Shown here piece by piece: positions 33,849 to 42,614 of a stretch of 64,000 bases of DNA. The position numbers and the translations under genes are program-made. The DNA is from Escherichia coli 042 (GTDB lineage Bacteria > Pseudomonadota > Gammaproteobacteria > Enterobacterales > Enterobacteriaceae), in assembly GCF_000027125.1 (NCBI RefSeq), contig NC_017626.1; one strand, 5' to 3'. Position 1 is the stretch's first letter. The number at the start of each line of letters is the position of its first letter. The notes below the pieces were generated by a model. That model had not been told where the DNA came from. It did no database searches and saw only the letters and a list, made by a program, of their open reading frames with translations.

Positions 33849-34301
33849 ATGGCAGAAACCAAAATTGTTGTCGGTCCGCAGCCATTCAGCGTAGGAGAAG
33901 AGTATCCGTGGTTGGCGGAGCGTGATGAAGACGGTGCGGTAGTCACCTTTACCGGTAAGGTGCGCAACCATAACCTTGGCGACAGCGTCAAAGCATTAAC
34001 CCTCGAACACTATCCGGGGATGACTGAAAAAGCACTGGCAGAAATTGTCGATGAAGCGCGTAACCGCTGGCCGCTGGGGCGCGTCACGGTGATTCACCGC
34101 ATCGGGGAATTATGGCCGGGAGATGAAATCGTTTTTGTCGGTGTCACCAGTGCGCATCGCAGCAGTGCGTTTGAAGCCGGGCAGTTTATTATGGATTATC
34201 TCAAAACCCGCGCACCGTTCTGGAAGCGTGAAGCCACGCCGGAAGGCGACCGCTGGGTTGAAGCTCGGGAGAGCGATCAGCAGGCGGCAAAACGCTGGTA
34301 G
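33849..34301 (+). CDS. moaE: Molybdopterin synthase catalytic subunit
   Basis: 150-aa ORF; operon synteny. Confidence 0.9.
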   Translation: MAETKIVVGPQPFSVGEEYPWLAERDEDGAVVTFTGKVRNHNLGDSVKALTLEHYPGMTEKALAEIVDEARNRWPLGRVTVIHRIGELWPGDEIVFVGVTSAHRSSAFEAGQFIMDYLKTRAPFWKREATPEGDRWVEARESDQQAAKRW

Positions 34302-34437
34302 TTTTTTGTTAGCCGGATAAGGCACCGCTGCGTCCGGCAATTTCACCGCTCAGTACATGCGTTTACGCTGCGTCGATGCACAGCCTCATCATTTTGCAGT
34401 ATCCTTAAGATATTCCTTATATCTTCAGGAGATCGTC

Positions 34438-35142
34438 ATGGACAGATTCCCACGTTCTGATTCAATTGTACAACCCCGGGCTGGCTTGCAAACTTATATG
34501 GCGCAAGTCTATGGCTGGATGACCGTTGGCTTGTTGCTGACCGCATTTGTTGCCTGGTATGCGGCTAATTCCGCGGCCGTGATGGAGCTGTTGTTCACTA
34601 ACCGTGTCTTTTTAATCGGTCTGATCATCGCGCAATTAGCATTGGTTATTGTGTTATCAGCGATGATTCAAAAGCTGAGCGCAGGTGCAACGACGATGCT
34701 CTTTATGCTTTATTCGGCGCTGACGGGTCTTACGCTTTCCAGTATATTCATTGTCTATACCGCTGCTTCTATCGCCAGTACTTTCGTCGTTACTGCCGGG
34801 ATGTTCGGCGCAATGAGCCTGTACGGTTACACCACGAAGCGCGATTTAAGCGGCTTTGGCAATATGCTGTTTATGGCGTTAATCGGTATTGTCATAGCCT
34901 CGCTGGTCAATTTCTGGCTGAAAAGCGAAGCGTTGATGTGGGCAGTCACCTACATCGGCGTGATTGTCTTTGTCGGATTGACGGCGTATGACACGCAGAA
35001 ACTGAAAAATATGGGTGAGCAGATTGATACCCGCGACACGTCGAACCTGCGCAAATATTCCATTCTTGGCGCGTTAACCTTGTATCTGGACTTCATCAAC
35101 CTGTTCCTGATGTTGCTGCGGATCTTCGGCAACCGCCGTTAA
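34438..35142 (+). CDS. ybhL: BAX inhibitor-1 family inner membrane protein
   Basis: Start at MDRFPRSDSIVQPRAGL; multi-TM. Confidence 0.85.
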   Translation: MDRFPRSDSIVQPRAGLQTYMAQVYGWMTVGLLLTAFVAWYAANSAAVMELLFTNRVFLIGLIIAQLALVIVLSAMIQKLSAGATTMLFMLYSALTGLTLSSIFIVYTAASIASTFVVTAGMFGAMSLYGYTTKRDLSGFGNMLFMALIGIVIASLVNFWLKSEALMWAVTYIGVIVFVGLTAYDTQKLKNMGEQIDTRDTSNLRKYSILGALTLYLDFINLFLMLLRIFGNRR

Positions 35143-35348
35143 TTCTTTTTTCACCATCAATATCCCGGCCATGTGTCGGGATTTTTTTCTTACGAAAAAA
35201 CGACACTTAACAAGTACCAGGTATAAAATATGCCTTATGAGCGAGCGGAAGCGTTTTCCGTATCCATAAATACAAAAGTATTTTGTATGCGTGGTTTTGA
35301 ATTTATTGATGGTAAGTATTAATGTTTTTTCTAAGGACAACTAAAAGA

Positions 35349-36062
35349 ATGGAATCATACTCGCAAAACAGCAATAAATTAGATTTTCAGCACGAGGCCA
35401 GGATATTAAACGGCATATGGCTCATTACAGCTTTGGGTTTGGCGGCAACCGCAGGACTGGCCTGGGTAGCGAAGCATCTTGAAATTACGGCAACAAAATA
35501 TGATTCACCGCAAATGTATGTCGCCATAGGATTATTATTACTTTGTATGTATGGTTTAAGTAAGGATATCAACAAGATAAATGCCGCCATCGCAGGCCTA
35601 ATATATCTGTTTTTACTCTCTTTGGTGGCGATTGTCGTTGCTAGTTAAGTTCCTGTATCTGCCATTATCGTCGTGTTCAGCACCGCGGGCGCGATGTTTT
35701 TAATCAGTATGCTGGCCGGTTTATTATTTAATGTTGATCCTTGTTCTCATCGTTTTATCATTATGATGATGTTGACAGGGTTGGCCCTGGTGATCATCGT
35801 GAATGCCGCATTAATGAGTGAACGGCCCATTTGGGTAATAAGTTGCTTAATGATTGTGTTATGGTCAGGCATTATCTCGCATGGACGAAATAAGCTCCTT
35901 GAACTGGCAGGAAAATGCCATAGCGAAGAGTTGTGGAGTCCGGTTCGTTGCGCTTTTACAGGTGTATTAACACTCTATTACTATTTTATCGGCTTCTTTG
36001 GGATTCTTGCAGCAATAGCGATAACGCTTGTCTGGCAAAGGCATACGCGGTTTCATATTTAA
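35349..36062 (+). pseudogene. ybhM: ybhM interrupted by an in-frame TAA at 35646..35648
   Basis: Two ORF-track fragments (to 35648, and from 35673) are in the same frame and separated only by a single TAA; overall span equals a full-length gene. Confidence 0.7.
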
Positions 36063-36120
36063 CGCACTTTCGACTTACGTTTAGAAATGTAGTATCTGAA
36101 ATATAATAGTGGAGAATATC

Positions 36121-36498
36121 ATGCAGTTAGTTTGTACCATCGATAAAAAATATATGGATAAATTTATGGCTATACTGTTTTCAGGAGTGTTACATTCCTT
36201 GAAAGAAGGTTCAATAACTATAGATGAATCTGAACTACTTGTTTTTAGACCTTTTATTTCCAGGCTTTTGCACAAAAATAGTTGTGATAAAGAGTTAATA
36301 GATATAATCGATCTTGGTTGTGAGTTTGAAGATATTGAGTCCCTGGTTCCTGAGCATCTTGATGATGCTATAAAAAACTTAATAACCAAAGTAAGTGATT
36401 TTACATATGCAACAAAAGATAATTATCCCTTGAGTGATAAAATGGAACATGCAGTATCTTTTATGTTTACAAATAACAACGGGCATGATGTGCATTAA
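36121..36498 (+). CDS. Island ORF-A, acidic hypothetical protein
   Basis: ATG with GGAGA RBS; AT-rich; C-terminus ...DNYPLSDKMEHAVSFMFTNNNGHDVH recurs in the remnant at 37705..37830. Confidence 0.5.
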   Translation: MQLVCTIDKKYMDKFMAILFSGVLHSLKEGSITIDESELLVFRPFISRLLHKNSCDKELIDIIDLGCEFEDIESLVPEHLDDAIKNLITKVSDFTYATKDNYPLSDKMEHAVSFMFTNNNGHDVH

Positions 36499-36586
36499 TG
36501 TGGAATGCTAATAAATTGACCATAATTATGTATTCTTAGAATAGTATTGCAAATGTTAATTATGAAAATAAATATTGTGGATTATA

Positions 36587-37045
36587 ATGAAAAATAAAAT
36601 CGAGTTTGATCAGGCTATTAAAAATGCTTATCTCGATATGGCGTTTCCCAACTTTGCATTTGTGATGGAGAAGTATAACTCATTAAAATATAAAGGCATA
36701 ATTACTGAGTTGAGTTCACGGTTTGATGTAAGAGATAACACTGAATTAAATAATGATGTTTGTTTTTCATTAGAAGTTGTTTTGCAAGAAGGTATTGCCT
36801 TTTTATATATGTCTTTTGTCGGGCAATATGCATTTATAATATTCAAAAACGACGTTATAACAAAACATGCAAATATAAATGCAGATGTAGCAGGTTTAAT
36901 TGATATATTGCTTTGTCATGAATTCATGATTTTGGATAAAGAATTTTTACTAAGTGAAGTTAGTTGCGATATTTGTCCGTTTTTAGTCGAAGCAAATAAT
37001 AAATATTTAAATTATTTATTCGCTCGTGGATTGAAAATAAAATAG
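36587..37045 (+). CDS. Island ORF-B, hypothetical protein
   Basis: 152-aa AT-rich ORF co-directional with ORF-A (track start 36575). Confidence 0.45.
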   Translation: MKNKIEFDQAIKNAYLDMAFPNFAFVMEKYNSLKYKGIITELSSRFDVRDNTELNNDVCFSLEVVLQEGIAFLYMSFVGQYAFIIFKNDVITKHANINADVAGLIDILLCHEFMILDKEFLLSEVSCDICPFLVEANNKYLNYLFARGLKIK

Positions 37046-37104
37046 CGTTATTGTTAACTAGTTTAAGATATTGAAATTTGTTATTTAACATATCAGGATG
37101 TTCT

Positions 37105-37704
37105 ATGTTAATAAAGTTAATTGATTTACAAACTATCAAGATTTTCGAAAAAATAAACTCATCTTCATCCGATTTAAGTAAGGAAATAAAAATAAAATCG
37201 CCGCTTCTAATTCCCTATGAAAATCAAGGGGTAACATTTTATTGTGATGAGCTATATGTATTTGATTCCGATGGTTATATTGTATTTGGTCATGATTTAG
37301 ATGGTTATTTTATTGTTAGCGTAAAAAACAAGAAAGTTTATTACTTGTATGATATAGACGAATGCGCAAATTTTACGATGATGTATTGCAATTCTGGAAT
37401 AAATGATTTTATTATATTCAATAATATTTTTATGCAGGCGGTTTTTAAACAATCAGAATTGATGGAAAAACAATTGTTAACAGATGATGAAATTTTATCA
37501 GATGCAATGGATGCTATATTTACCCAATGCGACAGTGAGGCTATGAAAGATGATGCCTTCTGGGGCTTAAGATGCTACGAGCTTCGCGACGGCTTTTTTC
37601 CTTTAAATGATGCCAAAATTAAATTTTATAGTGAAATGGAAAAAGGTCCTCATCAAGGCAAAAGTGAATCCATTCACAAGAGCAAGTTGAACAAAAATGA
37701 TTAA
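37105..37704 (+). CDS. Island ORF-C, hypothetical protein (possible immunity-protein-like fold)
   Basis: 199-aa ORF with AGGA RBS; C-terminal ...DAFWGLRCYELRDGFFPL... motif. Confidence 0.45.
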   Translation: MLIKLIDLQTIKIFEKINSSSSDLSKEIKIKSPLLIPYENQGVTFYCDELYVFDSDGYIVFGHDLDGYFIVSVKNKKVYYLYDIDECANFTMMYCNSGINDFIIFNNIFMQAVFKQSELMEKQLLTDDEILSDAMDAIFTQCDSEAMKDDAFWGLRCYELRDGFFPLNDAKIKFYSEMEKGPHQGKSESIHKSKLNKND

Positions 37705-37830
37705 ATGAGAGGCTCTTCACATCGCCGCTTCATTATTCGTCCAGAAAAAGATGATTATCCCTTAAGTGATGAAATGGAAAATGTGGTTTCCTTGGGATTT
37801 AGCAATAATAAGGATTTGCAGAATGTTTAA
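37705..37830 (+). pseudogene. Remnant of an ORF-A paralogue fused to a ybhN-3'-like repeat
   Basis: 41-codon frame MRGSSHRRFIIRPEKDDYPLSDEMENVVSLGFSNNKDLQNV; last ~26 aa align with the ORF-A C-terminus at ~75% nucleotide identity. Confidence 0.45.
37715..37741. repeat. Direct repeat copy 1: duplicate of the ybhN 3' terminus
   Basis: CTTCACATCGCCGCTTCATT is identical to 38046..38065, with partial similarity extending further. Confidence 0.7.
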
Positions 37831-38044
37831 AGATAAAACTGTCGCAGCGGAAATTAGTGCATTAATGCTTGAGATTGGTGCGAAATTAGATAATTCCGTT
37901 TCAGTTGTTCAGATAAGTTGTGATGAATCTGAGTTTAATATTTATCGGGCCGCCGTTGGTGAAATTATGGGGCGCATGCTAATCGACATCATGAACCCCA
38001 TTTATAAACAGCATCCCGAACTTAAACAAAAAGAACTTAACTAA
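37826..38044 (+). CDS. Island ORF-D, small hypothetical protein
   Basis: 72-aa ORF from MFKDKTVAAEISALMLEIGAKL...; ATG overlaps the remnant stop. Confidence 0.4.
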   Translation, partial: FKDKTVAAEISALMLEIGAKLDNSVSVVQISCDESEFNIYRAAVGEIMGRMLIDIMNPIYKQHPELKQKELN

Positions 38045-38045
38045 A

Positions 38046-38072
38046 CTTCACATCGCCGCTTCATTTTTCGCC
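38046..38072. repeat. Direct repeat copy 2: the genuine ybhN stop and last codons
   Basis: Same 20-mer; encodes the ybhN C-terminus ...AKNEAAM* on the minus strand. Confidence 0.7.
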
Positions 38073-39004
38073 CGCAGCTTCTTCGCCTGGCTTTCCAGTA
38101 ACAGGTAACAGATCAGCGCCAGCAGCAGTGGGATAAAGTAATACAGCACACGATAAGCGAGTAGGGCGGCGATAATTGTGCCTTTAGATGTATGCTCCCC
38201 TGCCAGTAGCGCGATAAACACCGCTTCCAGCACACCAATTCCCGCCGGAATATGCACGATGACACCAGCAATACTACTAACCAGCAACACGCCCAGTACA
38301 AAGAAATAGTTCACGCTTTGACCAAGTAACAGCCAGATTATCGCTCCCATTACCATCCAGTTAACGCTGGAAATCAGCATCTGGGCGAGGGCAAATTTCC
38401 ATGAGGGCAGCACCAGTTTTTGCCCTTTGATGGTCATATGGCGGTGCTTCGCGAAAGCGCAAAACCACAAATAAACCGCGATAATCATCAATAAGCCAAT
38501 GCCGAGAATACGCAGTGTAGTTTGATCGACATACCAGTGATCCGGCAACTCCACCACGCCTGCGGTAAAGATAATCCCCGCCAGTAAAATATAGCCCAGC
38601 CAGTTGGTGGTAATACTCAGCGAGAAAATCCGCGTGATAGTGCTGCCCGGTAACCCTAGCCGGGAGTACAAACGATAGCGCATACCAATGCCGCCGACCC
38701 AGGTACTGAGTGTCAGGTTGAAGGCGTAGCAGATAAACGACACCAGCATCACCTGGCGCTTCGCCAGTTTGTGACCGCAGTAGAAGCGGGCGAGCAGGTC
38801 ATAGCAGCCGTAAATCAGATAACTGACGACCACCAGCCCGACCGCACTAAGCAGCGCAACGCGATTGTAGTCGCGGATGACCTTCCAGACCTCTTCCCAG
38901 TCCACCTTTTTGGCGTAGACCACCAGCAACACAATCACCGCGATAAAAAACAGCCAGGTGAGGATCTTCTTTGCTAAGCGCCAGCGCGGGTGTGATTTAC
39001 TCAT
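38048..39004 (-). CDS. ybhN: Inner membrane protein (UPF0104 family)
   Basis: 318-aa multi-TM ORF; translationally coupled to clsB. Confidence 0.85.
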   Translation of the reverse strand: MSKSHPRWRLAKKILTWLFFIAVIVLLVVYAKKVDWEEVWKVIRDYNRVALLSAVGLVVVSYLIYGCYDLLARFYCGHKLAKRQVMLVSFICYAFNLTLSTWVGGIGMRYRLYSRLGLPGSTITRIFSLSITTNWLGYILLAGIIFTAGVVELPDHWYVDQTTLRILGIGLLMIIAVYLWFCAFAKHRHMTIKGQKLVLPSWKFALAQMLISSVNWMVMGAIIWLLLGQSVNYFFVLGVLLVSSIAGVIVHIPAGIGVLEAVFIALLAGEHTSKGTIIAALLAYRVLYYFIPLLLALICYLLLESQAKKLRAKNEAAM

Positions 39005-40245
39005 CAGGGTTTTACCCCCGTGTTTTCAGTTTCTACCCGATCCTGCGTTTCCATTGTCGGTTGGGCGGGCGGGTCAACCTGCGCCAGACGTGGTGTGTGT
39101 GCCGGAAGCCAGCCCACCAGAGCCGGGAAGTGGCGTAAAAAGTGGAAGGCCAGCACGCTTTTAGTCAGGTTCCACCAGGTGCGTTTCGGCAGCATGGTTT
39201 CATCGACCTGCTGACAATCTGCGGCGATAATGCCGTTTAGATTATCACGCAGCGTCTGGTTAAAATGACGATCGTGGATGATGACATTTGCTTCGAGATT
39301 CAGTGACAAACTGAGCGGATCGAGATTACTGGACCCTACCGTCGCCCAGTGATCGTCCATCAATGCCACTTTGCCGTGGAGCGGACGGCGGCGGTACTCA
39401 AACACCTGAACGCCGCCTTTAACCAGATAGTTATACAGCAAGCGCGCGCCGACTCTGACAATCGGCATATCCGGTTCGCCCTGAATGATCAGTTTGATCC
39501 GCACCCCGCGCCGTGCCGCTTTACGCAAGGCGTGTAAAAATCGATAGCCGGGGAAGAAGTAGGCGTTGGCGATAATGACTTCTCGCCGCGCCTGAGTGAG
39601 CATTTTCAGATAGTGGCGTTCGATATCATCGCGATGTTCTTCGTTATCGCGCCAGACCAGCAATACCTGCGCTTCTCCCGGCTGGCGGTTCTCTTCTGCT
39701 TTATGATGACGTCGCCACCAGCGTCGTGCCGCGCTCTGTCCTGGCAGGTTTTCCAGCTCAAACTGGAGAATATCTTCGACAATCGGCCCTTCGAGGCGTA
39801 CCGCGTAATCCTGTTTAGCCTCCGGACCGTAGCTGGACATATGCTCGGCGGAGTAATTCAGCCCGCCAATAAAGGCGATACGCGCGTCGATCACCACAAT
39901 TTTGCGATGCATCCGGCGAAACACATTGGTGCGCATACCAAAAAGGCGAGGGCGGGGATCGTAGTAGCGGAACACCACGCCAGCTGCCGTCAGTTCATTG
40001 ACAAACTCATCGCTGAGATCCGGCGAACCGTAGCCATCCAGCAAGACTTCCGCTTTAACCCCGCGTTGTGCTGCTGCCAGTAGCGCCGCATGCAGCTGTT
40101 TGCCGACGTCATCCTCAAACCAGATAAACGTTTCAAGAATGATACGTTCTTGCGCCTCGCCAATCGCCTTAAACACCGCGGGATAATATTGCTCGCCGTT
40201 TTCCAGCAACTGGATCTTATTGCCTTCGCGCCAGCTACATTTCAT
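39004..40245 (-). CDS. clsB: Cardiolipin synthase B (PLD superfamily)
   Basis: 413-aa ORF; synteny. Confidence 0.85.
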
Positions 40246-41003
40246 AAATGAATCTCCGCACTTAAAGGGGCATGATCAGAAAGGTGTCGCCATGTCCGCA
40301 GCGGCAAGGCGGTTGGCGCGCTGGCGCTGGCATTTTTGACGTAGATCCTGTCCAGTCGTAGTAGAGGAAATTGCACCGGAAACGTGCGCGCCGGGCGTCC
40401 GTGGGCGCGGGTAAATATCTCATCCAGCCCGGCCTGCACTTTTAACGGATGATTAGCTTTTTGCCGCCAGTCGTTGAAATCACCCGCCACCAATACCGGT
40501 TCGCCGTCCGGTAGCTCATTCACCCATTCGGCGAGCATCGCAAGCTGCGCCTGACGATGCGCCTCACGCAGGCCCAGATGTACGCACATCACATGAATCG
40601 CTTTCCCGGTCATCGGCGGCACAATGCGGCAGTAGAGCACGCCGCGCTTTTCCGCACCATCGACCGAAACATCACGATTCTCATAATGTTCAATGGGATA
40701 ACGTGAAAGAACCGCGTTACCGTGATGCCCTTCCGGGTATACGGCATTGCGACCGTAGGCAAAATCGCTCCACATAGTGTCGGCGAGAAACTCGTAGTGC
40801 GAAGTATCTGGCCAGTTTTCCACATGCAGCGGATGAACTTCGTGCGCGCCCATCACTTCCTGCAGGCAAACAATATCGGCGCTGACGGTACGCACGGCGT
40901 CGCGAAGTTCCGGCAAAATGAAGCGTCGGTTAAACGCGGTAAAGCCTTTGTGAATATTGATAGTGAGCACCTTGAACGAAAATTGTTGTGTTTGATCGGG
41001 CAT
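40242..41003 (-). CDS. ybhP: Endonuclease/exonuclease/phosphatase family protein
   Basis: 253-aa ORF; synteny. Confidence 0.8.
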
Positions 41004-41135
41004 AATTTTCCTGTCTTTGCCTCTTATCTCATTGAAATAGTGTAGTCGGCGTCACAAAAAGGTGCGGTCTTACGGAATTTTCCGTAAAGTTCGGTACTCT
41101 GAGTAAGTAGAGATAAATTCTTCAGGAGAGAAGCC

Positions 41136-41546
41136 ATGAAGTGGCAACAACGTGTTCGTGTCGCAACTGGTCTAAGTTGCTGGCAGATTATGTTGCATTT
41201 ACTGGTAGTGGCGCTGCTGGTGGTGGGCTGGATGAGTAAGACTCTGGTTCACGTCGGCGTGGGATTATGCGCACTGTATTGTGTCACGGTAGTGATGATG
41301 CTGGTGTTTCAGCGCCACCCCGAGCAACGCTGGCGTGAGGTGGCAGACGTGCTGGAAGAGCTGACTACGACCTGGTATTTTGGCGCAGCGCTGATTGTGC
41401 TGTGGCTGTTGTCCCGTGTACTGGAAAACAACTTTTTGCTGGCAATTGCAGGGCTGGCAATCCTTGCCGGCCCGGCGGTAGTGTCTTTGCTGGCGAAAGA
41501 TAAGAAGTTACATCACCTTACGTCTAAACATCGCGTACGCCGCTGA
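41136..41546 (+). CDS. ybhQ: Inner membrane protein
   Basis: 136-aa ORF with four TM helices. Confidence 0.8.
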
Positions 41547-42614
41547 CCCTGTCGTGGCCGTTATCACCAGTAGCGGCCACAAACTATTCCACACAATATC
41601 CAGACTCGCATCCTTCAAATAAATCTGCTTGGTAATGTCCGTAAAGTGGCGAATAGGGTTAATCCACGTCAGGTTTTGCAGCCATACTGGCATGTTTTCC
41701 ACCGGCGAAACGTAACCGGAAAGGAGAATGGCGGGCATCATAAAAACAAACACGCCGATAAACGCCTGCTGTTGTGTCGAGCAGAGTGATGAAATCAACA
41801 GACCGAATCCCACCAGCGATAAACCGTAAATCACCATCGTAAAGTAGAACAGCGCCAGCGATCCGGCGAAGGGGATTTGATACGCCCAGATACCAATCGC
41901 CAGCACAATGGTGGCCTGGAAGGTGGCGACAATTAATGCCGGTACGGCCTTGCCGATGAATATCTGCCAGGTTGTGAGCGGCGAAACCAGTAACTGATCG
42001 AGCGTACCTTGTTCACGTTCGCGGGCAACAGAAAGTGAAGTGACGATCATCACGCCAATAGTGGTGATCATGGCGATCAGCGACGGCACCACAAACCATT
42101 TGTAGTCGAGATTCGGGTTATACCAGTTGCGTACCACCAGCTCGCTGTTGTTGGGTTTCGGTTTTCCTTCCAGCAGCTCCTGCTGATAATTTTTGACGAT
42201 CTGTTGCAGGTAGTTGGCGGCAATTTGCGCACTGTTGGAGTTACGCCCGTCGAGGATCAACTGCAACGGCGCGGTCTGGAAGGTATCCAGTTTGCGCGAG
42301 AAGTCAGCCGGGAAACGCACCAGGAGTAACGCCTTTTGTGTGTCGATGGTCGGGCGGATCTCCTGCGGGCTTTTCAGCAGCAGCACATGGGTAAAGGCGC
42401 TGGCGCGGGCAAAACGTTGAGTAAGTTCTACCGAGTGCTCGCCGTTATCTTCATCGTAGATGGCGATGGTGGCGTTGGTCACTTCCAGCGTGGCGGCGAA
42501 CGGGAACAGGATCACCTGAATCAGCACGGGTAAAATCAGAATTGCGCGGGTTTGCGGTTCGCGCAGCAGCGACTGCAACTCTTTGCGGATTAACGTCCAT
42601 AAGCGATGAAACAT
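41508..42614 (-). CDS. ybhR: ABC-2 transporter permease
   Basis: 368-aa ORF; operon with ybhS, ybhF, ybhG. Confidence 0.85.

What the first reader, a model, noticed from the sequence alone, without database searches (positions are those of the whole stretch)
37705..37830. Decayed paralogue of ORF-A directly upstream of ORF-D, overlapping its start
A 41-codon frame ends ...DDYPLSDEMENVVSLGFSNNKDLQNV, which aligns with the ORF-A C-terminus DNYPLSDKMEHAVSFMFTNNNGHDVH at ~75% nucleotide identity over ~80 bp. Its N-terminus is derived from the ybhN-like repeat, and its stop overlaps the ORF-D ATG. So an ancestral two-gene unit (A-like then downstream gene) existed twice: A with B, and A' with D. 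This is the arrangement seen for toxin-C-terminus/immunity or other paired modules that diversify by recombination.
Basis: seen in the sequence. Interest (0 to 1): 0.6.

Follow-up and report, generated by a model that had tools for sequence, protein, structure and literature searches.

The report
Recombination scar in orphan immunity-gene island
The 41-codon frame is the truncated last 29 codons of a second, allelic DUF3969 gene, fused to a stray copy of the ybhN gene end when two alternative versions of a small E. coli island were joined by recombination; the island most likely holds orphan immunity genes against toxins injected by rival bacteria.

Summary
37746-37811 matches the 3' end of ORF-A at 77% over 66 nt, far above shuffles. 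37715-37742 is a 28-nt copy of the ybhN 3' end. The frame's stop overlaps the ORF-D ATG.

It is not an in-genome duplicate that decayed. E. coli carries alternative alleles between ybhM and ybhN: none (most strains), DUF3969-D, DUF3969-B-C, or D alone. The remnant is 80/85 nt identical to the 3' end of intact DUF3969 genes of the other allelic lineage (88-3493 type), which sit directly before D. The window is therefore a composite: an A-B-C allele with about 28 nt of ybhN end, joined illegitimately to the last 29 codons of a DUF3969-D allele. This composite is fixed, with an identical scar, in many E. coli assemblies.

Function is inferred. A is DUF3969 and C is SUKH-4. Elsewhere, DUF3969 genes sit directly after one conserved, unnamed ~88-aa toxin C-terminal domain carried by CdiA-, Rhs- and HINT-type proteins (11 of 25 genome loci; 3 of 3 reciprocal look-ups). 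So A is an immunity gene, not a toxin end, and the island is an orphan immunity array.

The scar is ordinary; the DUF3969 assignment is a useful by-product.

The parts
36080..36107 (+). Best sigma-70-like promoter match (TTTAGA-16-TATAAT) upstream of A; possible operon promoter for A-B-C-(A')-D.
   Evidence: 10 of 12 matches, the best in the region. The number of such sites is not above the shuffle expectation, so this is weak evidence. No terminator-like site lies between A and D.
36121..36498 (+). ORF-A, a full-length DUF3969 gene of lineage 'type 1' (125 aa); inferred orphan immunity gene.
   Evidence: Pfam PF13108, E=3e-16. AF2 pLDDT 92.9: helical bundle with paired N- and C-terminal strands. 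96-99% nt identity to A of GF4-3 and PT62.
36587..37045 (+). ORF-B (152 aa), no known family; cargo gene of the A-B-C alleles.
   Evidence: No Pfam, NCBIfam or PADLOC hit. 91% aa identity to GF4-3 B and 68% to N96 B.
37105..37704 (+). ORF-C (199 aa), SUKH-4 family immunity-type protein.
   Evidence: Pfam PF14435, E=6.9e-6. Homologues are annotated 'SUKH-4 family immunity protein' in RefSeq.
37705..37714 (+). Spacer ATGAGAGGCT, which in A-B-C alleles lies between the C stop and the ybhN stop. It supplies the ATG of the 41-codon frame and directly abuts the C stop (TAAATG).
   Evidence: Alignment with N96 and GF4-3; sequence.
37715..37742 (+). Stray copy of the ybhN 3' end (antisense), brought in with the A-B-C allele; left member of the direct repeat.
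   Evidence: the repeat finder D2: 28 nt, 26/28 identical to 38046-38073. Collinear with the C-ybhN junction of A-B-C alleles.
37743..37830 (+). A' remnant: the last ~29 codons of a 'type 2' DUF3969 gene. The join with the ybhN copy lies at about 37742-37745.
   Evidence: 80/85 nt identical to the 88-3493 A 3' end and 77/85 to FDAARGOS_943, against 77% to resident A. Identical in all eight composite loci examined.
37705..37830 (+). The chimeric 41-codon ORF of the finding (spacer + antisense ybhN + A' tail).
   Evidence: No family hit. In the AF2 model of A, the equivalent C-terminal helix and strand pack against the N-terminal strand, so the fragment cannot fold as a domain on its own (inference).
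37810..37814 (+). AAGGA Shine-Dalgarno-like motif for D, 8 nt before its ATG, inside the A' remnant.
   Evidence: Read from the sequence. The ~20 nt upstream of D are also kept in the D-only allele L007.
37823..38044 (+). ORF-D (73 aa), an Escherichia-restricted helical-hairpin protein; cargo gene of the A-D alleles.
   Evidence: 20 homologues, all Escherichia/Shigella. pN/pS 0.27-0.53 between alleles. AF2 pLDDT 90.7, two long helices. No Pfam, NCBIfam or PADLOC hit.
38048..39004 (-). ybhN (318 aa). Its 3' end (38046-38073) is the right member of the direct repeat.

Best explanation
The 126-nt frame is a recombination scar. The spacer between ybhM and ybhN in Escherichia is a small, AT-rich (30% GC), hypervariable island with alternative alleles: DUF3969-D, DUF3969-B-C, D alone, or nothing.

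In an ancestor of this strain, DNA of an A-B-C allele, including about 28 nt of the adjacent ybhN 3' end, was joined to a resident or incoming 'type 2' DUF3969-D allele. One crossover was homologous, in shared flanking sequence. The other was an illegitimate join at about 37742-37745, between the ybhN end and codon ~94 of the type-2 DUF3969 gene. This is the pattern expected from homology-facilitated illegitimate recombination.

The result is A-B-C, then the ybhN-end copy, then the last 29 codons of A', then D, then ybhN. The A' tail was kept because it lies between the join and D. It carries D's ribosome-binding site, so D stays expressed from the A-B-C transcript. The fused frame being open is probably incidental.

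Functionally (inferred from gene context, not from experiment), the island is an array of orphan immunity genes. DUF3969 is the cognate immunity family of a conserved ~88-aa polymorphic-toxin C-terminal domain, and C is a SUKH-4 immunity protein. B and D are probably further immunity-type cargo. Carrying both cargo sets would widen protection against toxins delivered by competitors.
For: Structure (shown):
- Allele types at the same locus in E. coli.
- 37705-37742 is collinear with the C-ybhN junction of A-B-C alleles, and 37743-38044 with the A-D junction of 88-3493-type alleles.
- The remnant is 80/85 identical to type-2 A, versus 77% to resident type-1 A. Window D is closest to type-2-linked D, at 92%.
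- Direct 28-nt ybhN repeat.
- The composite is identical in eight other loci. The exact D protein is indexed in 248 collection blocks. One carrier (L008) has flanks 1.7-2.1% diverged but an island only 0.4% diverged.

Function (inferred):
- A is DUF3969, E=3e-16; C is SUKH-4, E=6.9e-6.
- DUF3969 follows, with overlaps or gaps of -19 to +25 nt, ORFs that end in one conserved toxin domain in 11 of 25 genome loci from Proteobacteria and Firmicutes (phmmer E 1e-23 to 1e-42).
- That domain is attached to a Fil_haemagg_2 protein (L029), to Rhs_assc_core and to an intein-C/HINT region, to PT-HINT, and occurs as an orphan module after a TPS/PT-VENN CdiA.
- Reciprocal look-ups from the toxin gave DUF3969 immediately downstream in 3 of 3 cases.
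- A DUF3969+DUF4176+CdiI_4 fusion protein exists.
- DUF3969 lies in arrays with other toxin/immunity pairs.
- Standalone or arrayed SUKH genes have been proposed to give immunity to non-self toxins (PMC3113570). Orphan cdiI genes are expressed and protective (PMC3150448).
- No cognate toxin lies in the 64-kb window.
Against: - No experiment links DUF3969 to toxin neutralisation, and no paper in the searched library mentions DUF3969.
- B and D have no family, and outside Escherichia they are not found next to toxins.
- The direction of the event (which allele was resident) and the exact break, within about 3 nt, cannot be resolved.
- The left ybhN copy differs at 2 of 28 positions from all ybhN alleles seen, which blurs the join.
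- Expression of D, or of the 41-codon frame, has not been shown.
Confidence: 0.78

Rival explanations
1. In-genome tandem duplication of an ancestral A+downstream-gene unit, followed by mutational decay of the second A copy.
For: A and A' lie 1.3 kb apart on the same strand, and each precedes another small gene. Their identity of 77% over 66 nt is well above chance.
Against: A' is 94% identical to intact genes of a different allelic lineage and only 77% to resident A. That 77% equals the divergence between lineages (72-77%) seen across strains. The remnant is truncated by a clean join to a ybhN fragment that belongs to the A-B-C allele. It is not degraded by substitutions, frameshifts or stops. 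Intact A-D and A-B-C alleles exist separately at the same locus.
Confidence: 0.05
2. The 41-codon chimeric ORF is functional as a translated bridge. Ribosomes terminating at the C stop restart at the abutting ATG (TAAATG), read the frame, and terminate on top of the D start (ATGTTTAA). D translation would thereby be coupled to C, and the open frame would be maintained by selection.
For: Seen in the sequence: the C stop at 37702-04 directly abuts ATG 37705, the frame is open across the join, and its stop overlaps the D ATG. In intact A-D alleles of the FDAARGOS_943 type the A stop likewise overlaps the D start. The frame is identical in all composite carriers examined, including one with diverged flanks.
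Against: An in-frame join has a 1-in-3 chance expectation. D has its own AAGGA motif 8 nt upstream of the ATG. In 88-3493 and PT62 the A stop does not overlap the D start, so coupling is not universal. There is no sequence variation among carriers with which to test constraint. No expression data exist.
Confidence: 0.12
3. A (DUF3969) and D form a toxin-antitoxin or otherwise obligate two-component module, and A' is what remains after one partner was disabled.
For: A and D are adjacent or overlapping, co-oriented small genes in about 33 E. coli genomes.
Against: D exists intact with no A gene at all (L007), and here with only a 29-codon stump of its own A partner. A exists without D in the A-B-C alleles. 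There are no PADLOC, NCBIfam or Pfam toxin-antitoxin hits. Outside Escherichia, DUF3969 pairs with an upstream secreted-toxin domain, not with a D-like gene.
Confidence: 0.04
4. The similarity is a chance match in AT-rich DNA.
For: The island has 30% GC, and low-complexity AT-rich sequence inflates short matches.
Against: Score 57 against a shuffle mean of 21.0, sd 2.7, max 38. 80/85 identity to an intact gene end in another strain, in the same position relative to D.
Confidence: 0.01

Closest known systems
Orphan cdiA-CT/cdiI and rhs-CT/rhsI modules downstream of CDI and Rhs loci (Poole et al. 2011, PMC3150448)
   Same: Arrays of small co-oriented genes from the polymorphic toxin-immunity world. 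5'-truncated gene fragments are left in front of intact downstream genes. Modules are exchanged between strains by recombination. The orphan immunity genes are thought to broaden protection.
   Different: Here the truncated fragment comes from an immunity-family gene (DUF3969), not from a toxin. There is no VENN or DPxGL motif, no cdiBA or rhs gene, and no toxin in the 64-kb window. The island sits between housekeeping genes ybhM and ybhN.
Polyimmunity loci / supernumerary SUKH immunity genes (Zhang, Iyer and Aravind 2011, PMC3113570); acquired interbacterial defence clusters of Bacteroidales (Ross et al. 2019, cited from my own knowledge)
   Same: Several unrelated immunity-type genes (DUF3969, SUKH-4, plus unknowns) clustered without a toxin. 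The cluster has patchy strain distribution and foreign base composition.
   Different: It is very small (2-4 genes) and has no recombinase or mobile-element genes. It is chromosomal, at a fixed site, with allelic cargo variants. Protection has not been tested.
Homology-facilitated illegitimate recombination (de Vries and Wackernagel 2002, cited from my own knowledge)
   Same: One homologous anchor plus one illegitimate join with 0-3 nt of microhomology explains a foreign segment inserted next to shared sequence. It also explains the duplicated 28-nt ybhN end.
   Different: The mechanism is inferred only from the end product. A Campbell-type insertion of a circularised A'-D-ybhN' fragment would give the same structure.
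Pfam DUF3969 (PF13108)
   Same: ORF-A matches the model (E=3e-16), and the remnant is the tail of another member.
   Different: Pfam lists the family as of unknown function. The immunity role proposed here comes from gene context found here.

Membership tests
DUF3969 (PF13108) | Significant match to the Pfam model (full-length ORF-A) | tested here: met
   E=3e-16, residues 10-91 on model positions 4-85 of 106.
DUF3969 (PF13108) | The A' remnant derives from a family member | tested here: met
   The remnant lies C-terminal to the Pfam-matched core, so the HMM cannot see it (no family). However, it is 80/85 nt identical to the 3' end of the annotated DUF3969 gene of E. coli 88-3493, in the same position before D.
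Polymorphic-toxin immunity protein (CdiI/RhsI type) | Encoded immediately downstream of, and co-oriented with, the toxin C-terminal domain it neutralises | tested here: met
   Met for the DUF3969 family: 11 of 25 genome loci, L029/L030, L020-23, and 3 of 3 reciprocal look-ups. Not met for the window's own copies, which have no toxin upstream (orphans).
Polymorphic-toxin immunity protein (CdiI/RhsI type) | The partner toxin domain is carried by several delivery scaffolds (polymorphic-toxin architecture) | tested here: met
   Fil_haemagg_2; Rhs_assc_core TIGR03696, E=3.8e-21; intein-C/HINT; PT-HINT PF07591; orphan module after a TPS + PT-VENN CdiA.
Polymorphic-toxin immunity protein (CdiI/RhsI type) | Binds and neutralises the cognate toxin | not testable with these tools
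   Needs co-expression, pull-down or competition assays.
Polymorphic-toxin immunity protein (CdiI/RhsI type) | Fold shared with a solved immunity protein | tested here: inconclusive
SUKH-4 immunity proteins (PF14435), for ORF-C | Significant match to the Pfam model | tested here: met
   E=6.9e-6, partial (model positions 78-173 of 179). Precomputed hits on identical proteins are marked 'weak'.
Orphan toxin-CT/immunity module | The truncated upstream fragment is a toxin gene end (VENN, DPxGL or a toxin domain) | tested here: not met
   The fragment is the tail of a DUF3969 (immunity-position) gene. No similarity to the cognate toxin domain occurs anywhere in the window.
Toxin-antitoxin pair (A with D) | The partners are mutually dependent and always co-occur | tested here: not met
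   A D-only allele exists. A-B-C alleles lack D. Here D has only a stump of its own A.
Toxin-antitoxin pair (A with D) | Match to a known TA or defence family | tested here: not met
   PADLOC, NCBIfam and Pfam give nothing for D, and only DUF3969 for A.
In-genome tandem paralogue | The remnant is most similar to the resident full-length copy | tested here: not met
   77% to resident A versus 94% to the 88-3493-type allele.

The most novel reading that the evidence does not exclude
DUF3969 is the dedicated immunity family for a widespread, still unnamed ~88-aa polymorphic-toxin domain (IKNVY...ESGxWKKVYKDG...SIHYFQSQSGKVFDVKVK.GWSN). This domain is delivered by CDI, Rhs and HINT-type carriers, and possibly by LXG-type carriers, in both Proteobacteria and Firmicutes. 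Escherichia would keep two deep allelic lineages of orphan DUF3969 at ybhM-ybhN as armour against it. The conserved 3' patch of the gene (GATnATTATCCCTTnAGTGATnAAATGGAA) would serve as the homology handle by which downstream cargo genes (B-C or D) are swapped and stacked, an immunity-side counterpart of the VENN/DPxGL recombination handles of toxins. The open 41-codon frame would then be retained as a translational bridge to D.
Probability: 0.15. Interest if true: 0.55.

Novelty: new member of a known kind. Interest (0 to 1): 0.33.

Why it matters
The scar itself is an ordinary by-product of recombination. It does document, base by base, how two alternative cargo sets of a small accessory island were stacked in one E. 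coli lineage.

The more useful result is a by-product. A domain of unknown function (DUF3969), with no paper in the library searched, can now be assigned by consistent gene context as the immunity partner of a conserved but unnamed interbacterial toxin domain. That gives annotators a name for both families and gives experimenters a directly testable toxin/immunity pair. It also marks the ybhM-ybhN spacer of E. coli, including a 15-17-nt relic of D in K-12, as a minor hotspot for orphan immunity genes.

Tried and rejected
- PADLOC and NCBIfam scans of A, B, C, D and A' gave nothing usable.
- Pfam gave nothing for B or D, and nothing for the toxin domain, whether as a single sequence or as a 16-sequence alignment.
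- PDB sequence and profile searches for DUF3969 and for the toxin domain found no credible relative. The 26-residue match to a TIGR02646 protein, E=5e-4, was judged too short to use.
- Literature searches for DUF3969 and PF13108 returned zero papers.
- The word-indexed homologue search for A reached only Escherichia. The exhaustive representative search was needed to see the family.
An 18-sequence alignment worked.
- The promoter/terminator scan is not above background.
- An integrase-type insertion, with the 28-nt repeat as an att duplication, was considered and rejected. No recombinase or mobile-element gene is present, and the left repeat is simply the normal C-ybhN junction of A-B-C alleles.
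- B-, C- and D-like genes were looked for next to DUF3969 outside Escherichia and not found.

Full report
**Setting.** The window is Escherichia coli chromosome: moaB-E, ybhL, ybhM, an AT-rich island, then ybhN, clsB, ybhP, ybhQ and ybhR. An 8.2-kb stretch around the finding is base-for-base identical to three public E. coli assemblies, including the complete genome LR134238.1. The island spans 36080-38045. It has 30.5% GC against 53-54% in the flanks. It holds four co-oriented ORFs:
- A, 36121-36498
- B, 36587-37045
- C, 37105-37704
- D, 37823-38044

The 41-codon frame of the finding, 37705-37830, lies between C and D.

**Checking the observation.** Every descriptive element holds.
- The frame exists with the stated C-terminus.
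- Its 3' two-thirds align with the 3' end of A: 36414-36479 against 37746-37811, 66 nt, 77%.
- The local alignment score is 57, against 21.0 +/- 2.7 (maximum 38) in 500 composition-preserving shuffles.
- At protein level the match is 21 residues at 67%, E=3.7e-5 within the window.
- The 5' third contains a 28-nt direct repeat of the ybhN 3' end: 37715-37742 against 38046-38073, 26/28.
- The frame's TAA (37828-30) overlaps the D ATG (37823-25).
- One small correction: D starts at 37823.

**What the remnant is.** A blastn search of the island against 5,426 complete E. coli genomes shows that the ybhM-ybhN spacer is polymorphic.
- Most strains have no island.
- 39 genomes carry part of it.
- 5 have DUF3969-B-C-ybhN, for example GF4-3 and N96.
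- About 33 have DUF3969-D-ybhN, for example PT62, 2014C-3075, 88-3493 and FDAARGOS_943.
- One has D alone.

The multiple alignment of the junctions is decisive. Window 37705-37742 is collinear with the C-stop/ybhN-stop junction of the A-B-C alleles. From about 37743 onward the window is collinear with the end of the DUF3969 gene and with D of the 88-3493-type A-D alleles.

The 85 nt at 37746-37830 are 80/85 identical to 88-3493 and 77/85 to FDAARGOS_943.

The DUF3969 genes fall into two deep lineages that are about 72% identical at nucleotide level.
- Type 1: window, GF4-3, PT62 and 2014C.
- Type 2: N96, 88-3493 and FDA943.

Each lineage occurs with both cargo types. The resident A is type 1 and the remnant is type 2.

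The remnant is no more diverged from its intact relatives (94%) than the adjacent functional D gene is from theirs (92%). It is truncated, not decayed.

The join lies at about 37742-37745 with at most 1-3 nt of microhomology, and the A' reading frame is preserved.

**How the structure arose (inferred).** The simplest route needs one homologous exchange and one illegitimate join. Either the homologous exchange was in the shared left flank or A, or it was in ybhN; the illegitimate join was between the ybhN 3' end of an A-B-C allele and codon ~94 of a type-2 DUF3969 gene of an A-D allele. This is the signature of homology-facilitated illegitimate recombination. A Campbell-type insertion of a circularised fragment would give the same product.

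The 28-nt 'repeat' is just the ybhN end that normally follows C. No integrase or mobile-element gene is present.

The composite then spread.
- The exact D protein of the window is indexed in 248 blocks of the assembly collection, and every place shown has the A-B-C-gap-D arrangement.
- The scar is identical in eight other loci.
- One carrier (L008) differs from the window by 2.1% and 1.7% in the left and right flanks, but by only 0.41% in the island. That suggests the island moves between backgrounds as a unit.
- Within the island there is further mosaicism. B is closest to GF4-3 (91% aa) and C is closest to N96 (91% aa).

**What the genes do (inferred from context).**

A matches Pfam DUF3969 (E=3e-16) and C matches SUKH-4 (E=6.9e-6). 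B and D match nothing in Pfam, NCBIfam or PADLOC. No paper in the library mentions DUF3969.

An exhaustive search found 255 DUF3969 cluster representatives. Most are stand-alone proteins of about 105-125 aa.

Their contexts are consistent.
- In L029 a DUF3969 gene overlaps by 14 nt the end of a 1,439-aa Fil_haemagg_2 protein.
- In L020-L023 it follows an orphan toxin-end fragment in an array downstream of CdiA_C plus a CDI immunity gene.
- L027 encodes a DUF3969+DUF4176+CdiI_4 fusion.
- L017 and L024 are long co-oriented arrays with HEAT_2 and DUF4279 proteins.

A scan of one genome per species returned 28 loci, from Escherichia albertii, Proteus, Providencia, Clostridia, Treponema, Paenibacillus and others. 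In 11 of the 25 with a readable upstream ORF, that ORF ends -19 to +25 nt from the DUF3969 start. In each case it terminates in the same ~88-aa domain, 60-70% identical across phyla (phmmer E 1e-23 to 1e-42).

This domain hangs on a 1,650-aa Proteus protein, on a protein of at least 1,992 aa from a Bacillota genome, on an Rhs-associated core (TIGR03696, E=3.8e-21), on an intein-C/HINT region, and on PT-HINT. That is polymorphic-toxin architecture. The domain has no Pfam, NCBIfam or PDB relative.

The test also works in reverse. Starting from three toxin-domain homologues (Salmonella enterica, Pseudomonas aeruginosa, Priestia koreensis), the next gene is DUF3969 in all three. They lie inside arrays of other toxin/immunity pairs: Tox-HNH-EHHH, Ntox25, Ntox50/MafI2, CdiI_5, Colicin-DNase, Imm47 and deaminases. 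In Salmonella the array sits right after a TPS/Fil_haemagg/PT-VENN CdiA.

DUF3969 therefore occupies the immunity position of one specific toxin family. The window contains no such toxin. Its DUF3969 and SUKH-4 genes are thus orphans. This fits the published idea that supernumerary immunity genes protect against non-self toxins (PMC3113570), and the finding that orphan cdiI genes are expressed and protective (PMC3150448).

**Why the stump persists.** The last 15 nt of A' hold an AAGGA motif 8 nt before the D ATG. The roughly 20 nt before D are also retained in the independent D-only allele. So rearrangements that keep D expressed would be the ones that survive.

The frame is open from an ATG that abuts the C stop (TAAATG) to a stop that overlaps the D start. 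A ribosome relay from C to D is therefore conceivable. However, an in-frame join is a 1-in-3 event, D has its own ribosome-binding motif, and there is no variation among carriers to test constraint. I give the relay 12%.

**Rivals.**
- Tandem duplication and decay is contradicted by the 94% versus 77% comparison and by the clean ybhN join.
- An A-D toxin-antitoxin pair is contradicted by D-only alleles and by alleles with A but no D.
- Chance is excluded.

**Comparison with known systems.** The nearest analogues are orphan CT/immunity modules of CDI and Rhs loci, and polyimmunity loci. This island works like the latter. It is not an orphan CT/immunity module, because the truncated piece is from an immunity-position gene and no toxin fragment or delivery gene is present.

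**Verdict.** The feature is an ordinary recombination scar in a small orphan-immunity island. The worthwhile by-product is the context-based assignment of DUF3969 as the immunity partner of an unnamed toxin domain. I place it as a new member of a known kind, with modest interest.

Noticed in passing
window 35349-36062 (nonsense at 35647): ybhM is a pseudogene here through a single TTA->TAA change (Leu100 to stop). Otherwise near-identical composite carriers (L011, L008) have the intact 237-aa gene.
   Followed up: yes
L016 1223-1250 (E. coli K-12-type ybhM-ybhN spacer): The 'empty' K-12-type site keeps AAAGAACTTAACTAAAC, the last 15-17 nt of ORF-D, directly next to the ybhN stop. The common island-free allele therefore looks like a deletion derivative of a D-containing allele.
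   Followed up: partly
L029 4750-5014; L032 5730-5995; L059/L060 4001-4321; L062 4001-4324 and others: A conserved ~88-aa toxin C-terminal domain (IKNVY..APKYP.GF...ESG.WKKVYKDG...SIHYFQSQSGKVFDVKVK.GWSN) has no Pfam, NCBIfam or PDB match. It is carried by CdiA-like, Rhs and HINT proteins across Proteobacteria and Firmicutes, and is followed by DUF3969 in every case examined. Its activity is unknown.
   Followed up: partly
window 33823-42044 versus L008: In a second chromosomal background the island differs by 0.41%, while the left and right flanks differ by 2.1% and 1.7%. This suggests the composite island was transferred between lineages as a unit.
   Followed up: partly
window 36587-37704 versus L001 and L003: The cargo is itself a mosaic. 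B is 91% (aa) identical to GF4-3 but 68% to N96, whereas C is 91% to N96 but 81% to GF4-3.
   Followed up: no
L001 691-2900; L002 1-1131; L004 1-1483; L007 50-1485: The number of Bax-inhibitor-1 family paralogues between ybhL and the island varies from one to three or four among E. coli strains. The variable zone therefore extends to the left of the island.
   Followed up: no
protein P0010 (133 aa, ENA contig of 3.8 kb): One protein has precomputed Pfam hits to both DUF3969 and Fic/DOC (PF02661). It is 82% identical to A over 58 residues and may be a chimera or a fragment.
   Followed up: no
window 37715-37742: The stray ybhN-end copy differs at 2 of 28 positions (T->A, C->T) from every functional ybhN allele aligned, and all composite carriers share both changes. 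They arose either at the join or before the composite spread.
   Followed up: partly
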